From Armatimonadota bacterium (lineage in GTDB: Bacteria > Armatimonadota > SYMT01), in the NCBI GenBank assembly GCA_041690135.1, contig JAWLHY010000005.1, positions 275,261 to 339,260 on the forward strand: 64,000 nt of DNA. The letters are read 5' to 3'. Made by a program: the position numbers and the translations under genes. Shown in pieces: positions 1 through 6,745 of the stretch; the stretch's first letter is position 1, and the number at the start of each line of letters is the position of its first letter. The notes under the pieces are model-generated. The model was not told the DNA's origin and made no database searches. It saw nothing but the letters and a program-made list of their open reading frames with translations.

Positions 1-257
1 CGCACGCGCACGGTGCGGTTGCGGGTGTAGTCGTAGTAGACGGCCTCGCAGGACCGGCAGACATTGCGGTCCCCCACGTCGTCCATTTCGTCTTCGGACT
101 GGACGCCAAGCAGGCGCCAACGAGAGTTACCCAGCGCCTTTTGGACCTGGGGATGACGGGCGGCGTTGGCGGTAAAGGCGGAGACGGAGGCGGTCGGGTG
201 AGGCGAGCCCACCAGGAAGCGAGCGCCGCGCTCGAATACGAGTCCTTCTGTCGTCAC
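1..257 (-). CDS. Hypothetical protein, N-terminal part (runs off the window edge)
   Basis: GTG at 257 preceded by AGGAGAAAGG RBS; open frame MTTEGLVFERGARFLVGSPHP...CEAVYYDYTRNRTVRV to the edge; not in the ORF track because it has no stop. Confidence 0.7.
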   Translation of the reverse strand, partial: MTTEGLVFERGARFLVGSPHPTASVSAFTANAARHPQVQKALGNSRWRLLGVQSEDEMDDVGDRNVCRSCEAVYYDYTRNRTVRV

Positions 258-361
258 GCCGGATATCCTTTCTCCTACCGCGAACCTGCCACCGCGAGCC
301 AGCTAGGGTGAACTTACCGGTCCGATTGCCTGCACCTGGCTATTATACCGGCAGCCACGCG

Positions 362-1096
362 TCAACCGGCGACAAAGCTCGCAATTCGGCCGGGAACCGT
401 CGCATCGAACCCGGCAATGTCGAGCATGCCCGGGTCTTGCGGGTCGGCAATCGTGAAGCTTTCAGACTGCAGGCCCACCACGACCAGGCGCGCCGGAATG
501 TCCATCTCCTGGCGGTACTTCCGGAGCGCCTCGACCGGTGACGGCCTTCCGTGCCACGTTTCGGTATCCGTATATACCGCAAAGACATCGACCGGAAGCT
601 GCTGCTCCAGAGCCCATTCCATCGGAAGGCTGCAGTCCGTACCCCCCATTGGCAGCCGGGAGGTCATGTCCACGATCTCCGCGACGCGGTGGCGCGGGGA
701 GACCTCGAGGGGAGTCAACACCGAGCGTCCGTAACCCCACCGTCCGCCAAGGCCGTCCGGGCCGGCGGTGAAGGCGGCCACGGTCACCTGCCGCTCCAGG
801 GTAAGGGTCGTAAGGGTCAGCGCCGCACTGACGACCCGTGGGCTGAGGCCCGGATAGCCCGGCACCTCTCCAGAGCCCATGGACCCGGAGACGTCCAGCG
901 CTATCAGCCAGCGTTTTCCCGTCGTCTGCATGCCGCTGAACGCGGCGAAGAACAGGGAGTCCAGCGCGTCCGCGGACGGAGGCGCGCCGGGCGCCGGAGG
1001 GTTCGGAAACGCCGGCGAGGCATTCGGAAGTGTCCCCGCCGGCCCTGTATTTATGCGTGCCTGCTGTGGGGCACTCCGCTCTTCAAGAAAAGTCAT
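362..1096 (-). CDS. Ro60/TROVE-family protein, C-terminal vWA domain only
   Basis: Ro60-type vWA motifs GKRWLIALDVSGSM (MIDAS DxSxS), GGTDCSLPM, VFAVYTDTETW and TIADPQDPGMLDIAGFD; only a ~40-aa Pro/Ala-rich N-terminus precedes them; ATG 1096 chosen. Confidence 0.85.
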   Translation of the reverse strand: MTFLEERSAPQQARINTGPAGTLPNASPAFPNPPAPGAPPSADALDSLFFAAFSGMQTTGKRWLIALDVSGSMGSGEVPGYPGLSPRVVSAALTLTTLTLERQVTVAAFTAGPDGLGGRWGYGRSVLTPLEVSPRHRVAEIVDMTSRLPMGGTDCSLPMEWALEQQLPVDVFAVYTDTETWHGRPSPVEALRKYRQEMDIPARLVVVGLQSESFTIADPQDPGMLDIAGFDATVPGRIASFVAG

Positions 1097-1117
1097 GACG
1101 ATCTCGTTCGGCAATCG

Positions 1118-1155
1118 AAAAACAAAAACTCCCCGGCAGAGCCTGCCGGGGAGTT
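1118..1155 (-). terminator. Intrinsic terminator (attenuator)
   Basis: Stem AACTCCCCGGCAG / CTGCCGGGGAGTT (1127-1139 / 1143-1155) with a 3-nt loop, followed on the minus strand by UUUUUGUUUUU. Confidence 0.85.
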
Positions 1156-1177
1156 CGAAGCGGAAACGCTCGGGGCG

Positions 1178-1330
1178 TTACAAATCGAAAGGGGCTCTCC
1201 CGGCAGGCTCTGCACCATGCACGGCACAAGACAGCGTGGCGACGCAGATGGCGCACACCATAACGACGTGCTTGGAACGCGTCTCGCGCTTGCGGCTGGT
1301 GATGGAGTTGGACGAATACCAGTGGCTCAT
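1178..1330 (-). CDS. Putative leader (attenuator) peptide, 50 aa
   Basis: MSHWYSSNSITSRKRETRSKHVVMVCAICVATLSCAVHGAEPAGRAPFDL; lies between promoter and terminator and carries the antiterminator arm (1199-1213). Confidence 0.55.
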   Translation of the reverse strand: MSHWYSSNSITSRKRETRSKHVVMVCAICVATLSCAVHGAEPAGRAPFDL

Positions 1331-1381
1331 CGGAACTCTGCCTGGGTGAGGATCGGGGAACGTCAACATTCCCGGATCGAC

Positions 1382-1410
1382 AGCATACCCGGTGATCGTG
1401 TGGAAGTCAA
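1382..1410 (-). promoter_or_regulatory. Sigma70-type promoter
   Basis: TTGACT-17 bp-TATGCT on the minus strand. Confidence 0.65.
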
Positions 1411-1414
1411 GCAT

Positions 1415-1696
1415 TCACTGGGTGGTTTTACGCTTCTTCTTGGGCTTGTTCTTTCGGAAGCCGAAATACTTCTCGCTGCGATAACGGAGCCAGACGCGCA
1501 GCACCTGGGGGATCTGGTCCTTCTGCTCCTCGGTCAGCGTCATGTAGAGGGCCAACGCGCGGCCGCGAATCCGGCGGCAGGAGGCGTTGTTGTGCGCATC
1601 CCACTCCTTCCGCGCCTCGCGGATCAGCCGGCAGACCTCTTTAACCAGTTCCGCTCCCTGGAGCGGTTTTTCTTCTTTTCCGCCATCATCCGGCAT
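1415..1696 (-). CDS. Small basic conserved hypothetical protein (93 aa)
   Basis: WDAHNN..CR and IPQVLRVWLRYRSEKYFG segments resemble a small family I recall from Planctomycetota; Lys-rich tail; ATG overlaps the end of the MTase gene. Confidence 0.75.
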   Translation of the reverse strand: MPDDGGKEEKPLQGAELVKEVCRLIREARKEWDAHNNASCRRIRGRALALYMTLTEEQKDQIPQVLRVWLRYRSEKYFGFRKNKPKKKRKTTQ

Positions 1697-3953
1697 CTTG
1701 CTGTCCCATCCGGTACTTCTCGTCGTAGTGGAGCAGGTAGTCCTGTTCTTCAGCCGTGAATCCGTAGTGCCCCGCAAGCAGACGGTCGATCGCGTCGAGG
1801 ACCTCCTTCGCCTGCGCGGGGTAATACTCGCGGTACTCGACGGTCCCCGAAGGGTAGCGGCGGGTCCGCGTCCGCGCCGTGGCCTGCAACCGCTCGGCCA
1901 ACCGTTCTCCGCAGTCGCCCAACTCCTCCTGCAAGGGGATCGGAAGCGGGTCGAGCGGGAACGACGCCCACTCTTTCCTTCCCAGGTCGCGGCAGTTGCT
2001 CACCATTTTGAAGAAGAAATAGAAGGCCGTGCTGCTGAGGAGGGCCGCCAGGAGGTGCGCCCGGCGGCAATTGGGCGCCGGGATCCGGTGGTAATGGCCC
2101 GCGCTGGTGCGGGGCGCGCCGGGGTTCGGCGGGAAAGCCAACGCCCGGATCCAGTAGGTCGGCCCATCGTGCAGCCAGACGGCACCCTCCCCCTCCCCAG
2201 TCAGGTCCGTCAACCGTCCCCGGTGCCGGAGGAGCTTGCGGAAAAGGCTCTCGGCCACCGGATGCCCGGACTTGATCGGCATCCCAGTCTCCGGCCATTC
2301 GGAGGCAGGCGTGTAGCGGAGCCGGTCGAACAGGTGCGGTCGCTCAGGCTCGTGCCAGTGTTGATAGGGAGACACGTGGGTGGTCGGTCCGGGCGCGGGA
2401 CCGGTGATCCAGATGGCGAGGCGCTGCTCGACCCCCGGGAAGAGCTTGGCGGGCCGGTTGGAGTAGGTGCTGATCCAGCAGGCCTGCTCCCGCAGGAGCC
2501 CGGCCAACGGGCGAAACCCGGGAAGGGAGACGGAACTGATCGGTACGATGAGCCCCAGGCGCCCCTCCGGTCCGGCAAGCCGGCGGGCCCTCTCGCACAC
2601 CAGGGCGTAGAGATTCTCGCAGCCTTCCGTGGTATACCCGAGGCCGTGGTACTGCCCGCAGGGAGCATAGGCGACGTAGGGTGGATTCCCCACCACCGCA
2701 TCGAAGGCCTGCTTCTCTTCCGGGCACTGCGGCCAGGGAGCGGTTGTGGTCAGGACGTCGGCGGTCTGTAGATGGAGAGACAACTCCACAACCGGCGGTG
2801 TCTCCGCGGCGGAAGAAGGCGGAAGGCGATGGGTATCCGCGAGGAAGCGCAGCAGGAGGCGCATCCGGCACGTTTCGATGGCAGCCGACGAGAGATCGAC
2901 CCCATACAGGTTCCGCTCCAGGATCAGCCGGGTGACCTGGGAAGCCCCCCGGCGGGTCGGCTCGGCCGGGTCGCTTCCGTCGTCGAGTGTTCCGGATGCC
3001 GGGGCATTGTGAGCTTCCGGAGCCAACTGCCGGAGACGGTCGAGGCAGGCGAAGTACAGGGGTCGCAGGACCTCCAGTGCTCCCAGCAGAAACGCTCCGG
3101 ATCCGCAGGTCGGGTCCAAGACCTTAAAACCACACAGGGCGTCTTGAAGGAACCGGCGGATCGCTTCCGGGTTGCCGCATCCGGCGATCCAGTCCAGCAC
3201 CAACCGGCTGAGGTCCAGGTTCCAGGTGATGAAATCCGCGGACGTGGCGATCTCTCCGGCCACCCAGGACCGGCGGCACTCCGCCACGGACACCTGCCGC
3301 TCCCGGCGCTCCTGTTCGGTTTCGTGGGGCAAAGGGTCGGGTTGAATCCGGGTCGGAGGCAGGTAGCGGTCGGGGCTGTGGGGAGCGCGCCAGCCCGGTA
3401 GATCTCGCAATGAAAACGCACCCGCGGCGAGGCCCAGCGCGGCTGCGAACCGATCGAGCACCGCCGGGACCAGCACGCTGCCACAGATGTAGCGTGTGAC
3501 GTCGGGACTGGTGAAGTAGACGCCCTGCCCCTTGCGGTCCTGCTCGCGCTCGCAGAGGGCTCCCAGGAGGGCGGGGCCGATCCGTTCGTCGCCAGGATCT
3601 TCTGCCAGCGTCCATTCCCAGGCGTCGCAGGCCTGCAGCCAGGTTCGGCAAAGGGTATCCGGTACTGGCAGACCGGCATCCACGGTAGCTCCCAGCCAGC
3701 GGCGGGCGGTGGGGCGGAGTACCTCGCGGTCGAAATGACCGTGGTTCTCCGAGTTCGAGGATGTGTCCGCCGGCATCAGTTGCCAGAGCCGCCCGGGTGC
3801 GTATGGGAGCCAGCCCGCGTGGTCGAGCAGGTAGAGGAACACGAACCGCCGGAGGGCGGGCGCGTACTCCGGCCCCGGCAGGGTTCGCAGGAGACTCGCC
3901 AGGCATTTCCGCGGCGCCTGCTCTCTCCCTCCGCTGTTGCGTACGGTGCCCAC
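1686..3953 (-). CDS. Eco57I/type IIG-like amino-DNA methyltransferase with no recognisable endonuclease domain
   Basis: GVYFT motif X, VLDPTCGSGAFL motif I, LYGVD, VVGNPPY motif IV, C-terminal IDRLLAGHYGFTAEEQDYLLHYDEKYRMG; start codon uncertain. Confidence 0.85.
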   Translation of the reverse strand: MGTVRNSGGREQAPRKCLASLLRTLPGPEYAPALRRFVFLYLLDHAGWLPYAPGRLWQLMPADTSSNSENHGHFDREVLRPTARRWLGATVDAGLPVPDTLCRTWLQACDAWEWTLAEDPGDERIGPALLGALCEREQDRKGQGVYFTSPDVTRYICGSVLVPAVLDRFAAALGLAAGAFSLRDLPGWRAPHSPDRYLPPTRIQPDPLPHETEQERRERQVSVAECRRSWVAGEIATSADFITWNLDLSRLVLDWIAGCGNPEAIRRFLQDALCGFKVLDPTCGSGAFLLGALEVLRPLYFACLDRLRQLAPEAHNAPASGTLDDGSDPAEPTRRGASQVTRLILERNLYGVDLSSAAIETCRMRLLLRFLADTHRLPPSSAAETPPVVELSLHLQTADVLTTTAPWPQCPEEKQAFDAVVGNPPYVAYAPCGQYHGLGYTTEGCENLYALVCERARRLAGPEGRLGLIVPISSVSLPGFRPLAGLLREQACWISTYSNRPAKLFPGVEQRLAIWITGPAPGPTTHVSPYQHWHEPERPHLFDRLRYTPASEWPETGMPIKSGHPVAESLFRKLLRHRGRLTDLTGEGEGAVWLHDGPTYWIRALAFPPNPGAPRTSAGHYHRIPAPNCRRAHLLAALLSSTAFYFFFKMVSNCRDLGRKEWASFPLDPLPIPLQEELGDCGERLAERLQATARTRTRRYPSGTVEYREYYPAQAKEVLDAIDRLLAGHYGFTAEEQDYLLHYDEKYRMGQQDAG

Positions 3954-3990
3954 GCCTAGCCCCCCGACCCTGAACGGTCGGGCTCTGGTA

Positions 3991-4210
3991 CTGCACGCTG
4001 CCCACACCCACACCCGCAAGCGGGTACCCGGGCGTAAACCTCGTGGGCGCTCGGTCTGCGGTCAAAGCGGCGGCAGATCTTCTTGACCGGGCGCGGGTGC
4101 TCTGCGGACCGGCGATCTCGATCCGAGCGTCGGTGGTGCCCGCGAAGGTTTACACCCGGGCCGGGCAGCCTTCGGGTGGCGCTTGCGGGTGTGGGTGCGT
4201 GACCGTGCAG
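3991..4210 (+). other. Long branched inverted-repeat structure (candidate ncRNA or REPIN-like element)
   Basis: Nested pairings CTGCACG/CGTGCAG, CACCCACACCCGCAAGCG/CGCTTGCGGGTGTGGGTG, CCCGGGCGTAAACC/GGTTTACACCCGGG, CGCTCGG/CCGAGCG and GGTCAA/TTGACC; C(UUCG)G side loop. Confidence 0.6.
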
Positions 4211-4293
4211 TTTCGGAGCCCCGAGGATTTGCTCGGGAATCACGCCGGCTCGCGGGTGAACGTGTCGCATTGGGCTGTGCCGGTACTCAATGA

Positions 4294-5166
4294 TTACGCG
4301 ATGGGCTCTTCACACCCTGACGCGAGGCTGCGGAGGAGGGCGTGCATGATGCGGGTCGGCTCGAGGAGTTGGGCGTCCGTTAGCGGTCGCTGCCCGGTGC
4401 GAACCATCTCCATGAAGACCGCAAGACCGTCCGCGTAGCAATTGGTGATGTCGATCGTCTCACTTAGCCAGCCTTCGGTGCCGTGGAGGGTGGCGGAGTA
4501 GGTCGCTTTGGCGGATTTGCCCAGGTTCAGGTTGGCCAGCCGTCCGTCGGGCCAGCGGACCACGCTGGTGATGTTTCCCTGGCCCTCGCGGGCGTAGATG
4601 CCCGCGGCCCCGTGGCCGAAGAGCGTGAGCATCATCTCGATAGCGTGGTTGGCGTAGAAGAAGATGCCGCCATACTCGCTCTCCCGGTCCGCCGGTCCGG
4701 ACACCTGCCCCATCCGGATCTCCCCCAACGCGGAGGTACGTTCCCGTAGAGAGCGGATGGCGGGCGTCCAGCGGGTGGTGGAGTATGAGGTCAGCGGTGC
4801 GCCCGATTCCGCCGCGGCCTCCAGCATCGCCTGGCAGTCTTCCAACCGGATGGCGAACGGCTTGTCCACGAAGACGGGCTTCCCGGCACGAATGAACGGC
4901 AGGGCGTGACCGGCGTGGAGGTCGCCGTGCCGCCAGACGACCATCACGGCATCCACGCGGTCCAGCATGTCCTCGAGCGTGGGCGCCAGAAAGGGGATCT
5001 GCCCTTTCTCGATGACTTCCGCGTTCCGGACCGGATCCGTGCCGTAGAGCGCGACGCAGCGCGCATCCGCCCAGCGCGGGTCCCCGGCGCCCTTCTCGGT
5101 GTTCAGGAGTTGAGCGAAAGCAAGGGCGTGCGAGTTATCGGAGCCAACGATGCCGATGCGGAGCAT
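4294..5166 (-). CDS. Gfo/Idh/MocA family oxidoreductase
   Basis: MLRIGIVGSDNSH Rossmann start; VFVDKP motif. Confidence 0.85.
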   Translation of the reverse strand: MLRIGIVGSDNSHALAFAQLLNTEKGAGDPRWADARCVALYGTDPVRNAEVIEKGQIPFLAPTLEDMLDRVDAVMVVWRHGDLHAGHALPFIRAGKPVFVDKPFAIRLEDCQAMLEAAAESGAPLTSYSTTRWTPAIRSLRERTSALGEIRMGQVSGPADRESEYGGIFFYANHAIEMMLTLFGHGAAGIYAREGQGNITSVVRWPDGRLANLNLGKSAKATYSATLHGTEGWLSETIDITNCYADGLAVFMEMVRTGQRPLTDAQLLEPTRIMHALLRSLASGCEEPIA

Positions 5167-5394
5167 GAGAGTCTCGGGAGTGGGAGTGAACCGACAAGAC
5201 ACCAAGCGCGCCAAGAGGGAAAGAGAAGTAGGGAGCTTGGATCCGGCGTTCGGATGGGAAACAGCGGGACACCCTATCCTTCCCGTTCACTTCCCGGATC
5301 ACCTTCCGGGTTATCCGGTGATGAGAGGATCAGGGTAAGAAGAGCTCGGAACGAGACACGGTCGGTATTAGGCCTGGGAAGGGTGATTGCTTCT

Positions 5395-5636
5395 GCCCTT
5401 TCGGCCCCCTGCCCGGTGCTTCGCCGATTGGGATGAGGACGAGGATAAGGATAAGGAGGTCTGGAGCAGAACCAGAATCCTTCCGCCAGTATCTGGTGCA
5501 ATCTTCCGCCCTTTCGGCCCCCTGCCCGGTGCTTCGCGGATTAGGACGAGGATGAGGATTAGGATAAGAATGCCCAGGGCAGAACTCGATCGTTTCTTCC
5601 TTTGATAGGTATGGACCTCGGCCCTTTCGGCCCCCT
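5395..5636. repeat. Direct-repeat array with 113-bp period
   Basis: GCCCTTTCGGCCCCCT begins at 5395, 5508 and 5621; the first two copies extend to 61 bp with 5 mismatches. Confidence 0.85.
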
Positions 5637-5896
5637 ACCCCCGCCACCCACACCCCTTCGGGGCACCCGGTGCCCGGCTGGGGGAAGGTGCTAACCTCAG
5701 ATGGAGTGCGGGTTCACGTACGCCAGGATTGGCAGAGTCCCACAAGACACGACGAGTACTTGCCCATGGCCCGGCGGTGACGGAGAATTCTGCCCTACCA
5801 AACCGCAGCCAGCCTGTCGATCTTTGGGTTCCCCAACCTTCAACCTTCCAACCTGCAACTCAGATCCTGCCCTGCCGAACCATAGCCAATTCCGGA

Positions 5897-6745
5897 TCAG
5901 CCCTTGAGGCCGGTAACCGCGATGCCCTGGATGAAGGTCCGCTGGGCGAAGAAGAAGATGACGATGATGGGGAGCGTCATCAGGGTGGAGGCGGCCATGA
6001 GCAGGGACCATTCGGCGCCATGCTGGCTGACGAACTGCTGGAGCCCAAGGGAGAGGGTGGCCATCCGCTCGTCGTTGAGGTAGATGAGCGGACCCATGAA
6101 GTCGTTCCAGGCGCCGATGAAGGTGAAAAGGCCGACGGTGGCCAGTGCCGGGCGGGAGAGCGGCAGGATGACCCGGCGGTAGATGTCCCACTCCGAGCAG
6201 CCGTCGATGCGGGCCGCGTCGGAGAGCTCCAGCGGGATCGTGAGGAAGAACTGCCGCAGCATGAAGATGAAGAACGCAGTGCCCAGGAAGTGCGGCACCA
6301 CCAGCGGGTAGAAGGTGTCTACCCAGCCCAGCGCGCGGAAGATGCCGAACACCGGGATCAGGGTTACCTGCCCCGGCAGCATCATGGTGGCCAGCAGCAC
6401 CAGGAAGAGAGGGTCGCGTCCAGGCCAGCGGATGCGGGCGAAGCTGTAGGCCACCAGCGAGGAGGAGACCACGGCCCCGAAGACGCTGAGAACGCAGATG
6501 ATCAGGGTGTTTTTGAGAAACAGGAAGAACGGGATGTAGTTGACCGACCGGCCGAAGTTCTCCCAGTGCAGCACTTTGGGGAAGAACACCGGCGGCATGG
6601 CGAAGACTTCCGCATCCGCCTTGAGGCTGGTGATCACCAGCCAGTAGAACGGCAGGAAGAAGAGCCCCAGGCCGATCAGTGCCAGGTGCGACCCCAGGGT
6701 GCCGAGCGCGCGCCTCCCCCACCGCTTCGGATTCCCGCCGCTCAT
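5897..6745 (-). CDS. Carbohydrate ABC transporter permease (MalG-like)
   Basis: EAA loop ELSDAARIDG; multiple TM helices. Confidence 0.92.
   Translation of the reverse strand: MSGGNPKRWGRRALGTLGSHLALIGLGLFFLPFYWLVITSLKADAEVFAMPPVFFPKVLHWENFGRSVNYIPFFLFLKNTLIICVLSVFGAVVSSSLVAYSFARIRWPGRDPLFLVLLATMMLPGQVTLIPVFGIFRALGWVDTFYPLVVPHFLGTAFFIFMLRQFFLTIPLELSDAARIDGCSEWDIYRRVILPLSRPALATVGLFTFIGAWNDFMGPLIYLNDERMATLSLGLQQFVSQHGAEWSLLMAASTLMTLPIIVIFFFAQRTFIQGIAVTGLKG

What the first reader, a model, noticed from the sequence alone, without database searches (positions are those of the whole stretch)
1096..1410. Complete ribosome-dependent attenuator in front of a Ro60-family gene
Seen: a TTGACT-17-TATGCT promoter, a 50-codon leader ORF with a Val/Cys-rich run (VVMVCAICVATLSCAV) and a strong terminator (1118-1155). 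A segment inside the leader (1199-1213) is a perfect 15-nt complement of the terminator 5' arm plus loop (1136-1150), making a mutually exclusive antiterminator. Established: this is the geometry of ilv/leu/thr-type attenuators, where stalling upstream of the antiterminator arm permits read-through. Inference: the controlled gene is a Ro60 homolog rather than an amino-acid biosynthesis gene. The leader may therefore sense translation stress or tRNA(Val/Cys) loss and induce an RNA quality-control factor. The leader ends in GRAPF, a near match to RAPP/RAGP arrest motifs.
Basis: partly seen in the sequence, partly recalled or inferred. Interest (0 to 1): 0.85.

Follow-up and report, generated by a model that had tools for sequence, protein, structure and literature searches.

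The report
Terminator switch before truncated Ro60 gene
A promoter, a short reading frame and a strong terminator with a competing hairpin sit in front of a Ro60-derived gene that has lost its RNA-binding half; a related bacterium has the same leader ahead of a complete Y RNA-Ro60 gene cluster, so it is probably a read-through switch whose signal is still unknown.

Summary
These are the TTGACT-17-TATGCT promoter-like site, the 50-codon ORF, a 13-bp terminator with a T tract, and a perfect 15-nt complement to the terminator. That complement is exceptional: of 200 strict terminator hairpins in the 9.1-Mb genome, none of the other 199 has an upstream complement longer than 8 nt.

Two things change the reading.
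- **The downstream gene is not a whole Ro60.** It has only the vWA half and no TROVE domain.
- **The leader is conserved in one other genus.** In G006 a homologous promoter, ORF, hairpin and terminator follow the same small gene. There they precede Y-RNA-like elements and a full-length rsr.

The ORF's start and stop positions are kept in G006. The peptide, the Val/Cys run, GRAPF and the strong antiterminator are not.

Best reading (0.45): a read-through (attenuator-type) leader inherited from a Y RNA-rsr locus, probably sensing ribosome position rather than Val or Cys. Rivals are an independent small RNA or peptide gene, or a decaying locus. No transcript data could be obtained.

The parts
1415..1696 (-). 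orf93: a conserved small basic protein gene. Its stop codon (1417-1415) lies 4 nt before the -35 box. It is the syntenic anchor of the leader.
   Evidence: 814 homologs with E<=0.01. Present in 6 of 6 other genomes of the family. Differences in related metagenome contigs fall at steps of 3. It is followed by the homologous leader in G006.
1382..1410 (-). Sigma-70-like promoter, TTGACT-17-TATGCT.
   Evidence: 9 of 12 matches and the only hit in 4.2 kb. G006 has TTGACA-18-TATCTT at the same place after orf93.
1333..1350 (-). Segment A (region 1): resembles the terminator 5' arm and ends in the conserved CAGAGTTC (1340-1333), 2 nt before the ORF's ATG. It pairs with segment B in short transcripts and with the terminator 3' arm in the full-length fold.
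   Evidence: I3; A:B -22.3, A:T3 -23.6 kcal/mol. A:T3 is also possible in G006 (-18.4).
1178..1330 (-). Leader ORF: 50 codons plus TAA.
   Evidence: Start and stop positions are conserved in G006; the peptide is not.
1195..1213 (-). Segment B (region 2, antiterminator arm). 1199-1213 is the perfect 15-nt complement of 1136-1150. The conserved core is TGCCG(G/A)GAGAG.
1165..1179 (-). Hairpin P: a 5-bp stem and 5-nt loop around a shared CGAG. The ORF's stop codon overlaps its 5' base.
   Evidence: The same kind of hairpin, with a different stem sequence, is present in G006. Under MAFFT's sequence alignment the two hairpins are offset by 2 columns.
1118..1155 (-). Intrinsic terminator: 13-bp stem (1155-1143 / 1139-1127), loop GCT, T tract down to 1118.
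   Evidence: hairpin alone -26.8 kcal/mol. The homologous 13-bp terminator in G006 is shown.
362..1096 (-). vWA-only derivative of Ro60/Rsr, 244 aa. Its ATG lies 21 nt after the T tract, so transcription must pass the terminator.
   Evidence: 55% identity to the genome's full-length copy. Searches show ortholog P0002, 80% identical and the same length. One search shows DxSxS, T153 and D177 invariant across the four aligned sequences.

Best explanation
The stretch 1118-1410 (minus strand) is a cis-acting read-through switch of the attenuator type.

**Proposed mechanism.** A promoter right after orf93 starts a roughly 260-nt leader. Four related segments can pair in two ways:
- A:B plus T5:T3, which forms the terminator and stops transcription at about 1118-1122.
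- B:T5 (with A:T3), which is the antiterminator and lets RNA polymerase run on into the gene that starts 21 nt later.

The most likely input is the position of the ribosome translating the 50-codon leader ORF when the polymerase reaches the terminator. A ribosome lagging in codons 1-37 leaves B free to capture T5. A ribosome over codons 38-49 masks B. This would report general translation speed or coupling, not a particular amino acid.

**Proposed origin.** The module was inherited from a locus where it preceded Y RNAs and a full-length rsr, as it still does in genus G006. In the window's lineage the Y RNAs and the TROVE half of rsr are missing, and the antiterminator is much stronger.

**Shown:** the sequence elements, their rarity in the genome, the alternative folds, the homology and synteny with G006, and the domain content of the gene.

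**Inferred:** that the terminator works, that the ORF is translated, that ribosome position sets the outcome, and the direction of evolutionary change.
For: - All elements are present.
- The 15-nt complement is unique among 200 terminator-like hairpins of the genome.
- The two folds lie close in energy: forced terminator -104.5, forced antiterminator -109.5, free fold -111.1 kcal/mol.
- In growing transcripts A:B (15 pairs) forms first and is replaced once T5 is out.
- The ribosome mask switches the fold between codons 37 and 38.
- The vWA gene's ATG is 21 nt past the T tract, which leaves no room for a promoter of its own. Yet the gene looks maintained: ortholog P0002 is 80% identical, has the same 244 aa and start, and keeps the metal-site residues.
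- G006 has the homologous module directly after its orf93. The pairwise alignment shows 194 of 254 aligned columns identical, with score 69.5 against 20.2 +/- 6.0 (maximum 41.5) in 200 shuffles. It is followed 30 nt later by tRNA-like and stem-bulge-like elements, then a full-length rsr.
- No other promoter-like site was found on that strand between the G006 terminator and rsr.
- ORF start (CAGAGTTC + 2-3 nt + ATG) and stop (22 against 27 nt before the stem) are kept while the peptide is not. Only 2.0% of 20,000 G006 interior shuffles place the stop in that range.
- In both genomes B resembles the 3' arm and A resembles the 5' arm.
Against: - There are only two homologous sequences, so no real covariation test is possible.
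- In G006 the B:T5 duplex is weak (-10.1 against -29.6 kcal/mol). The terminator stays in the minimum-energy fold at every ribosome position tested there, and the best alternative costs 9.6 kcal/mol.
- No canonical Shine-Dalgarno 4-mer precedes the leader ATG in either genome, although 37% of 3715 first ATGs of long ORFs in this genome have one, against 9.5% of 9278 internal ATGs. The stretch before the ATG is base-paired in both alternative folds.
- The codon score of the ORF is poor, and an ORF of this length arises in 10.5% of shuffles.
- Region 1 lies before the ORF rather than inside it, unlike classical attenuators. A ribosome stalled mid-ORF would therefore not mask it.
- The genome's own full-length rsr on contig C2 has a promoter directly before its Y-RNA-like element and no such leader.
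- There are no transcript data of any kind.
Confidence: 0.45

Rival explanations
1. An independent small transcription unit. The promoter and terminator bound a roughly 260-nt small RNA (or a fast-evolving small-peptide gene) that acts on its own. The alternative pairings shape that RNA rather than switch the terminator. The downstream gene is reached only by leakage.
For: - The promoter, the 5' and 3' segments and the terminator are conserved, while the middle 120 nt is not alignable. That pattern is common in small-RNA genes.
- In the full-length fold the 5'-proximal segment A pairs with the 3' end (A:T3). This is possible in both genomes, at -23.6 and -18.4 kcal/mol.
- The strong B:T5 pairing is absent in G006.
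- The module sits beside a cluster of other non-coding RNAs in G006.
Against: - No Rfam family matches at E<=1 apart from chance-level hits that rest on the hairpins.
- The vWA gene starts 21 nt after the T tract and appears maintained. It therefore needs read-through.
- The conserved ORF boundaries are not expected for a non-coding RNA.
Confidence: 0.3
2. A decaying locus with no regulation. The terminator simply ends the methylase-orf93 transcript, the vWA frame is a remnant of a deleted rsr, and the 15-nt complement is a relic of a partial inverted copy of the nearly palindromic hairpin.
For: - rsr is plainly truncated: no TROVE, and only positions 338-529 of 531 of the Rsr model are matched.
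- The neighbouring methylase matches only the distal part of a type IIG profile (best stretch at positions 749-1096 of 1100).
- Segment B differs from a direct copy of the 3' arm plus loop only in the loop (D1: 80% identity).
- No terminator lies between orf93 and the leader.
Against: - G006 has its own promoter-like site at the same spot after orf93, and the same module before an intact rsr.
- P0002 keeps an open 244-codon frame at 80% identity with intact DxSxS/T/D residues.
- A 15-nt perfect complement is unique among 200 terminators.
Confidence: 0.15
3. One reading: a classical amino-acid attenuator that senses charged tRNA-Val or tRNA-Cys, helped by a GRAPF arrest motif.
For: There are 5 Val and 3 Cys among codons 22-37, and stalling at any of them leaves the antiterminator in the equilibrium fold.
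Against: - The run is not consecutive and reads as an ordinary hydrophobic segment.
- The G006 peptide has no such run and no RAP motif.
- RAPP-type arrest needs Pro in the A site (PMC10951233, passages read).
- Arrest at RAP-F would mask segment B and favour termination (codons 47-48).
- No homolog of the peptide was found among 1.84 billion representatives.
Confidence: 0.05
4. A type I toxin-like gene: a small hydrophobic peptide whose mRNA is locked by 5'-3' pairing.
For: The 50-aa peptide has a charged N-terminus and a 16-17-residue hydrophobic core. The ribosome-binding region is paired in all folds. It sits beside a restriction-modification-like gene.
Against: - The G006 peptide is hydrophilic.
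- No antisense promoter was found.
- There are no PADLOC or Pfam hits and no paralogs in the genome.
Confidence: 0.03

Closest known systems
Leader-peptide transcription attenuators of amino-acid operons (trp, his, leu, thr, ilv); the description here is recalled from general knowledge
   Same: A promoter-proximal short ORF, an intrinsic terminator just before the structural gene, a mutually exclusive antiterminator, and a further upstream segment that can sequester the antiterminator arm (1:2, 2:3, 3:4).
   Different: - There is no run of codons for one amino acid.
- Region 1 lies before the start codon, not inside the ORF.
- The ORF is long (50 codons).
- The controlled gene is a Ro60-derived vWA protein (in G006, Y RNAs and rsr), not a biosynthetic operon.
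Ribosome-stalling attenuators that respond to translation inhibitors, such as tylosin-dependent stalling on the yxjB leader in B. subtilis (PMC6851288, abstract seen in search listing)
   Same: The peptide sequence need not match a metabolic pathway. Read-through depends on where the ribosome sits relative to the antiterminator arm. This is the known class it would most resemble in operation.
   Different: No drug-dependent stalling motif is known or conserved here. The downstream gene is not a resistance gene. Nothing has been tested.
Bacterial rsr-Y RNA loci (Deinococcus, Salmonella, Mycobacterium smegmatis; PMC4201824, abstract and passages read)
   Same: In G006 and on contig C2 of this genome, tRNA-like and stem-bulge-like RNA elements lie within about 1.3 kb upstream of rsr on the same strand. 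This matches what that paper describes.
   Different: - The window's copy has neither Y RNA nor TROVE.
- A terminator-bearing leader ahead of such a locus was not found in print. Searches turned up only one review holding all the terms, and it was not read. In the one paper read (PMC4201824) the only match to 'attenuat' refers to an attenuated strain.
- The Salmonella operon is under RtcR control (PMC7790460, abstract in listing).
RAPP / SecM-type arrest peptides (PMC10951233, PMC12992588; abstracts, and passages of the first)
   Same: The tripeptide R-A-P occurs near the C-terminus of a leader peptide.
   Different: - The fourth residue is Phe, not Pro or Gly.
- The motif is absent in G006.
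- The hydrophobic segment ends only 13 residues before the stop, so it would still be inside the exit tunnel. It could not report on membrane targeting (this last point is an inference from general knowledge).

Membership tests
Leader-peptide (ribosome-dependent) transcription attenuator | A short ORF between the promoter and the terminator. | tested here: met
   The ORF spans 1330-1178. Its start and stop positions are conserved in G006, where 2.0% of shuffles reproduce the stop position. By itself the ORF is not significant, since 10.5% of shuffles contain one.
Leader-peptide (ribosome-dependent) transcription attenuator | An intrinsic terminator immediately upstream of the regulated gene. 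| tested here: met
   A 13-bp GC-rich stem plus T tract, 21 nt before the ATG. It is conserved in G006.
Leader-peptide (ribosome-dependent) transcription attenuator | A mutually exclusive antiterminator overlapping the terminator's 5' arm. | tested here: met
   A 15-nt perfect complement, unique among 200 terminators. In G006 it is only weak, so it is met for the window but not shown to be conserved.
Leader-peptide (ribosome-dependent) transcription attenuator | A cluster of regulatory codons for the sensed amino acid, conserved among orthologs. | tested here: not met
   Val and Cys are scattered through a hydrophobic stretch, and the G006 peptide is unrelated.
Leader-peptide (ribosome-dependent) transcription attenuator | A ribosome stalled at the regulatory codons masks region 1 and frees region 2. 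| tested here: inconclusive
   Equilibrium masking gives the antiterminator for codons 1-37. However, region 1 (1350-1333) lies upstream of the ATG and is masked only at initiation or the first few codons.
Leader-peptide (ribosome-dependent) transcription attenuator | Termination and read-through respond to leader translation in vivo or in vitro. | not testable with these tools
   No RNA run holds the locus. The laid contigs do not cover 1065-1421.
Ro60 / Rsr | A TROVE (HEAT-repeat ring) domain that binds Y RNA and misfolded RNA. | tested here: not met
   Pfam gives only PF25045. The Rsr equivalog scores 207.5 bits against a cut-off of 900, covering model positions 338-529 of 531. The genome's one TROVE match is on contig C2.
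Ro60 / Rsr | A C-terminal vWA domain with metal-site residues. | tested here: met
   PF25045 at E 5e-56. DxSxS (D68, S70, S72), T153 and D177 are invariant in the 4-sequence alignment. Their assignment to the metal site is from general knowledge.
Ro60 / Rsr | A Y RNA gene nearby on the same strand. | tested here: not met
   There are no Y RNA, YrlA, stem-bulge or tRNA-like hits at E<=1 in window 1-6000 or in L004. They are present at the full-length loci.
RAPP / SecM-type arrest peptide | R-A-P/G in the P site with Pro (or Gly) in the A site. | tested here: not met
   The sequence is RAPF. The requirement is taken from PMC10951233. The motif is not conserved in G006.
Type I toxin-antitoxin | A small hydrophobic toxin together with a cis- or nearby-encoded antisense RNA. 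| tested here: not met
   The hydrophobic core is present only in the window's peptide, and no antisense promoter-like site was found.

The most novel reading that the evidence does not exclude
In this bacterial family (probably Armatimonadota), a translated-leader attenuator is the ancestral gate of a Y RNA-Ro60 operon. The RNA quality-control particle would then be switched on when ribosomes lag behind RNA polymerase. In the window's lineage the same switch has been kept, its antiterminator has been strengthened, and it now drives a TROVE-less vWA protein with a function of its own.
Probability: 0.2. Interest if true: 0.7.

Novelty: new variant of a known kind. Interest (0 to 1): 0.5.

Why it matters
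How bacteria decide when to make Ro60 and its Y RNAs is known for few species. The Salmonella operon is under RtcR control (PMC7790460, abstract). In Deinococcus, small RNAs encoded upstream of rsr rise after UV irradiation (PMC4201824, passage read).

A leader that couples read-through to ribosome progress would be a different and directly testable route from translation stress to RNA surveillance.

The locus also shows that the vWA half of Ro60 can persist alone: two organisms carry it at 80% identity. This gives a handle on what that poorly understood half does.

If the switch proves inert, the finding reduces to a well-preserved relic of a deleted rsr locus.

Tried and rejected
- **Y RNA idea for the leader.** No Rfam match was found beyond chance-level hits that rest on the hairpins (ncS037, c4-2, mir-3155; E 0.05-0.7, far below gathering scores). 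Nothing was found in L004 either.
- **Repeat or mobile element.** The 321-nt leader has no second copy in the genome. The peptides have no paralogs.
- **BLAST of 950-1420 against 400 genomes of the phylum.** Only short chance matches appeared. The search also missed G006, so it was too insensitive to count as evidence of absence.
- **Motif pattern in 401 genomes.** It matched G000, G006 and G191. G191 is an unrelated terminator after a different gene.
- **Motif scan of all 210 fetched loci (1.14 Mb).** The module occurs only in loci of the window and of the G006 contig. L071, L205 and L210 share the contig length and offsets, so they are one instance and not three.
- **Scans for relatives of P0002.** Neither the genome contigs nor the metagenome-contig scan returned a locus matching its first 35 residues.
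- **Leader peptide searches.** One search returned only the query itself as a candidate. The other returned the query plus two repeat-like proteins matching residues 4-45, which lie mostly upstream of the 50-codon ORF.
- **Sequencing runs.** No RNA holder is listed. Two soil runs hold 15-16% of the sampled words. The laid contigs cover parts of 402-1064 and 1422-1778, and nothing in 1065-1421.
- **N-terminal extension of the vWA protein as the old Rsr N-terminus.** MAFFT lines up MT(F/Y)L and (A/T)PQ, and the DNA around the ATG looks similar. BLASTP finds nothing at E<=100, so this remains unproven.
- **Covariation.** The hairpin P and terminator stems differ between the two genomes while still pairing. 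The helices are offset by 1-2 columns in the sequence alignments, so no formal compensatory change is claimed.
- **Read-through of the single TAA.** The leader ORF and the vWA frame are in the same frame. This has a one-in-three chance, and a terminator lies between them, so the idea was dropped.
- **Defence-system membership of the vWA gene or orf93.** PADLOC gave no hits.
- **Supplementary tables of PMC4201824** (lists of Y RNA loci) could not be consulted.
Full report
**1. What is there**

All features lie on the minus strand. The sequence after the stop codon of a small gene (orf93, 1696-1415) runs as follows.
- TTGACT (1410-1405), 17 nt, TATGCT (1387-1382).
- About 50 nt of untranslated leader ending in CAGAGTTC.
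- ATG at 1330, then 50 codons to TAA at 1180-1178.
- A small hairpin.
- A 13-bp GC-rich stem-loop (1155-1127) with the tail TTTTTGTTTTT down to 1118.
- 21 nt later, the ATG (1096) of a 244-codon gene.

The promoter-like site is the only one in the first 4.2 kb, where shuffles give 0.4. Positions 1199-1213 are a perfect 15-nt complement of 1136-1150, which covers 8 nt of the 5' arm, the loop and 4 nt of the 3' arm.

**2. Is it more than chance?**

I collected 200 strict terminator-like hairpins from the whole 9.1-Mb genome. The criteria were a perfect stem of at least 8 bp and at least 6 T in the following 8 nt. For each I took the longest exact complement between its 5' arm, loop and first 4 nt of the 3' arm, and the 150 nt upstream. 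The result was 5 nt or less in 113, 6 in 44, 7 in 34, 8 in 8, and 15 only here.

Region 1090-1380 folds with z = -5.2, and 0 of 200 shuffles are as stable. Its minimum-energy fold holds the antiterminator.

The ORF alone is not remarkable.
- All three sense frames are largely open.
- 10.5% of 2000 dinucleotide shuffles contain a complete ATG ORF of at least 50 codons.
- Its codon score (-0.016) lies at the 4th percentile of real coding windows. 20% of 5334 spurious ORFs reach it.

**3. Alternative folds**

A further segment A (1350-1333, just before the ATG) resembles the terminator's 5' arm.
- In transcripts that end between 1199 and 1150, the minimum-energy fold pairs A with B (12-15 pairs).
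- Once the 5' arm T5 is transcribed, the fold switches to B:T5. In the complete leader, A pairs with the 3' arm T3.
- Forcing the terminator gives -104.5 kcal/mol (with A:B). Forcing the antiterminator gives -109.5. The free fold is -111.1.
- Masking 28 nt around a P-site codon leaves the antiterminator for codons 1-37, and for a ribosome at codon 50 or the stop codon. It gives the terminator for codons 38-49.

These are equilibrium folds. They show that the geometry allows a ribosome-dependent switch, not that one operates.

**4. The downstream gene is not a whole Ro60**

- It matches only the Ro60 vWA domain (PF25045, E 5e-56) and has no TROVE domain.
- NCBI's Rsr model aligns only positions 338-529 of 531, scoring 207.5 bits against a cut-off of 900.
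- The genome has one complete copy (TROVE plus vWA, 554 aa) on contig C2, 55% identical over the vWA part.
- In 60 relatives, 17 places matched. Fifteen lie in open frames of 527-636 aa, one in a 163-aa frame that I did not examine, and one is a marginal match.
- Among 240 database proteins of similar length, only P0002 shares the 45-residue N-terminal extension. It is 80% identical and 244 aa long.
- DxSxS, T153 and D177 are invariant across the four aligned sequences.

An open frame kept at 80% identity suggests the vWA-only protein is maintained. This is an inference, because the DNA of that contig could not be fetched.

**5. The turning point: a homologous leader before a complete Y RNA-rsr locus**

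orf93 belongs to a large family of small basic proteins (814 hits). It is present in all 6 other genomes of the family.

Of the 8 orf93 loci in other genomes, one continues with the same module. That is G006, contig C274. After its orf93 it carries, in order:
- TTGACA-18-TATCTT.
- CAGAGTTC, 3 nt, then ATG.
- A 45-codon ORF.
- A 5-bp hairpin around CGAG.
- TTTGAAC.
- A 13-bp terminator.

The two leaders align at 194 of 254 columns, with score 69.5 against 20.2 +/- 6.0 in shuffles.

Thirty nt after the G006 terminator come two tRNA-like matches and a stem-bulge (Y-RNA-like) match. A full-length rsr follows. This is the layout described for bacterial Y RNA loci (PMC4201824; passages read). No other promoter-like site was found on that strand between the terminator and rsr.

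The leader's association with Ro60 is therefore ancestral. The window's locus looks like the same locus after loss of the Y RNAs and the TROVE half. The direction of change is inferred.

P0002 and an orf93 homolog (P0124, 94% identical) each lie on a contig of 5,420 nt. This is very probably one contig, so the window's arrangement seems to recur there.

**6. What is and is not conserved between the two leaders**

Kept:
- The promoter position.
- CAGAGTTC followed by ATG.
- An ORF ending 22 nt (window) or 27 nt (G006) before the stem. In G006 the other two frames have 4 and 3 stops. Only 2.0% of 20,000 interior shuffles end the ATG frame 19-31 nt before the stem.
- The core TGCCG(G/A)GAGAG of segment B.
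- A hairpin around CGAG.
- TT(C/T)GAAC.
- The terminator.
- The possibility of A:T3 pairing, at -23.6 and -18.4 kcal/mol.

Not kept:
- The peptide, which is unrelated and hydrophilic in G006.
- The Val/Cys run.
- GRAPF.
- The strong A:B pairing (-22.3 against -8.7 kcal/mol).
- The strong B:T5 pairing (-29.6 against -10.1).

In G006 the terminator stays in the minimum-energy fold whatever the ribosome position. With two sequences, and helices offset by 1-2 columns in the alignments, no formal covariation can be claimed.

**7. Explanation**

The best-supported reading is a read-through switch of the attenuator type, inherited from a Y RNA-rsr locus. Three points carry the case.
- A maintained gene that starts 21 nt after a strong terminator needs a way through it.
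- The window offers a uniquely strong antiterminator.
- The conserved ORF boundaries with a free peptide sequence fit a leader whose translation, not its product, matters.

The weak points are the poor antiterminator in G006, the missing Shine-Dalgarno sequence, the paired start region, and the lack of any transcript data.

I put this at 0.45. Within it, ribosome position is the most likely input. Val/Cys-specific sensing gets about 0.05. RAPF is not an arrest motif by the published requirement for an A-site proline (PMC10951233), and it would favour termination in any case.

Rivals:
- An independent small RNA or peptide gene (0.3).
- A decaying locus with a relic hairpin copy (0.15).
- A type I toxin-like gene (0.03).

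**8. Comparison with what is known, and novelty**

It works like a leader-peptide attenuator, but it fails that family's defining feature of a conserved cluster of regulatory codons. It also places region 1 before the ORF.

It most resembles attenuators that read general ribosome stalling, such as the yxjB leader (PMC6851288, abstract).

I found no paper linking Ro60 or rsr to an attenuator or leader peptide. The one paper holding all the terms is a broad review, which I did not read.

I file it as a new variant of a known kind, unverified. Interest is moderate: 0.5 overall, and 0.7 if the translation-sensing control of a Y RNA-Ro60 operon is real (probability about 0.2).

Noticed in passing
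L001 1034-1416 (own genome, contig C2): The genome's full-length rsr is preceded by a promoter-like site (TTGACG-18-TATTCT, 1034-1063). A stem-bulge/Y-RNA-like match follows at 1333-1401 (RF01656, 36.5 bits, just under the gathering score of 38) and ends 16 nt before the start codon. Sequence resembling tRNA D and T arms lies between the two. Similar matches sit beside full-length Ro60 genes in relatives (L005, L007, L010, L011, with tRNA-like hits in L008, L010-L012, L014). These look like ordinary bacterial Y RNAs of the YrlA type.
   Followed up: partly
window 1415-1696 (-): orf93 is a conserved protein of about 90 aa with a lysine-rich tail. It has 814 database relatives, many in records named as cyanobacteria and Armatimonadota, and some sources label it 'Precorrin-3B methylase'. 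It has no Pfam, NCBIfam or PADLOC match. It neighbours the rsr-derived locus in two genera. Differences in related soil contigs fall at steps of three, as expected for a coding gene. Its function is unknown.
   Followed up: partly
window 1686-4019 (-): The 777-aa Eco57I-family methyltransferase matches mainly the distal part of a type IIG restriction-modification profile (best stretch at profile positions 749-1096 of 1100). It may be an N-terminally shortened or orphan enzyme. Its stop overlaps the start of orf93 by 11 nt.
   Followed up: no
window 1097-1180 (-): The leader ORF and the vWA frame are in the same reading frame, separated by a single TAA, with the terminator lying in between. This is probably coincidence.
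   Followed up: partly
whole genome (G000): Only 200 strict intrinsic-terminator-like hairpins (perfect stem of at least 8 bp, T-rich tail) were found on both strands of 9.1 Mb. Canonical intrinsic terminators therefore seem uncommon in this organism.
   Followed up: no
L210 3935-3975 (-), G006: A 7-bp hairpin (CGCAGGC / GCCTGCG) with a T-rich loop lies just before the strong ribosome-binding site of the full-length rsr. Its sequence loosely resembles the stretch between the window's T tract and the vWA start codon. It could mark the deletion junction.
   Followed up: no
Its record title names a class from a different phylum than the titles of the other nearest hits, which suggests a taxonomic label problem.
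   Followed up: no
just outside the window start (L004 about 1030-1136): A masked run of N lies inside the gene downstream of the vWA gene. That gene could not be read through.
   Followed up: no
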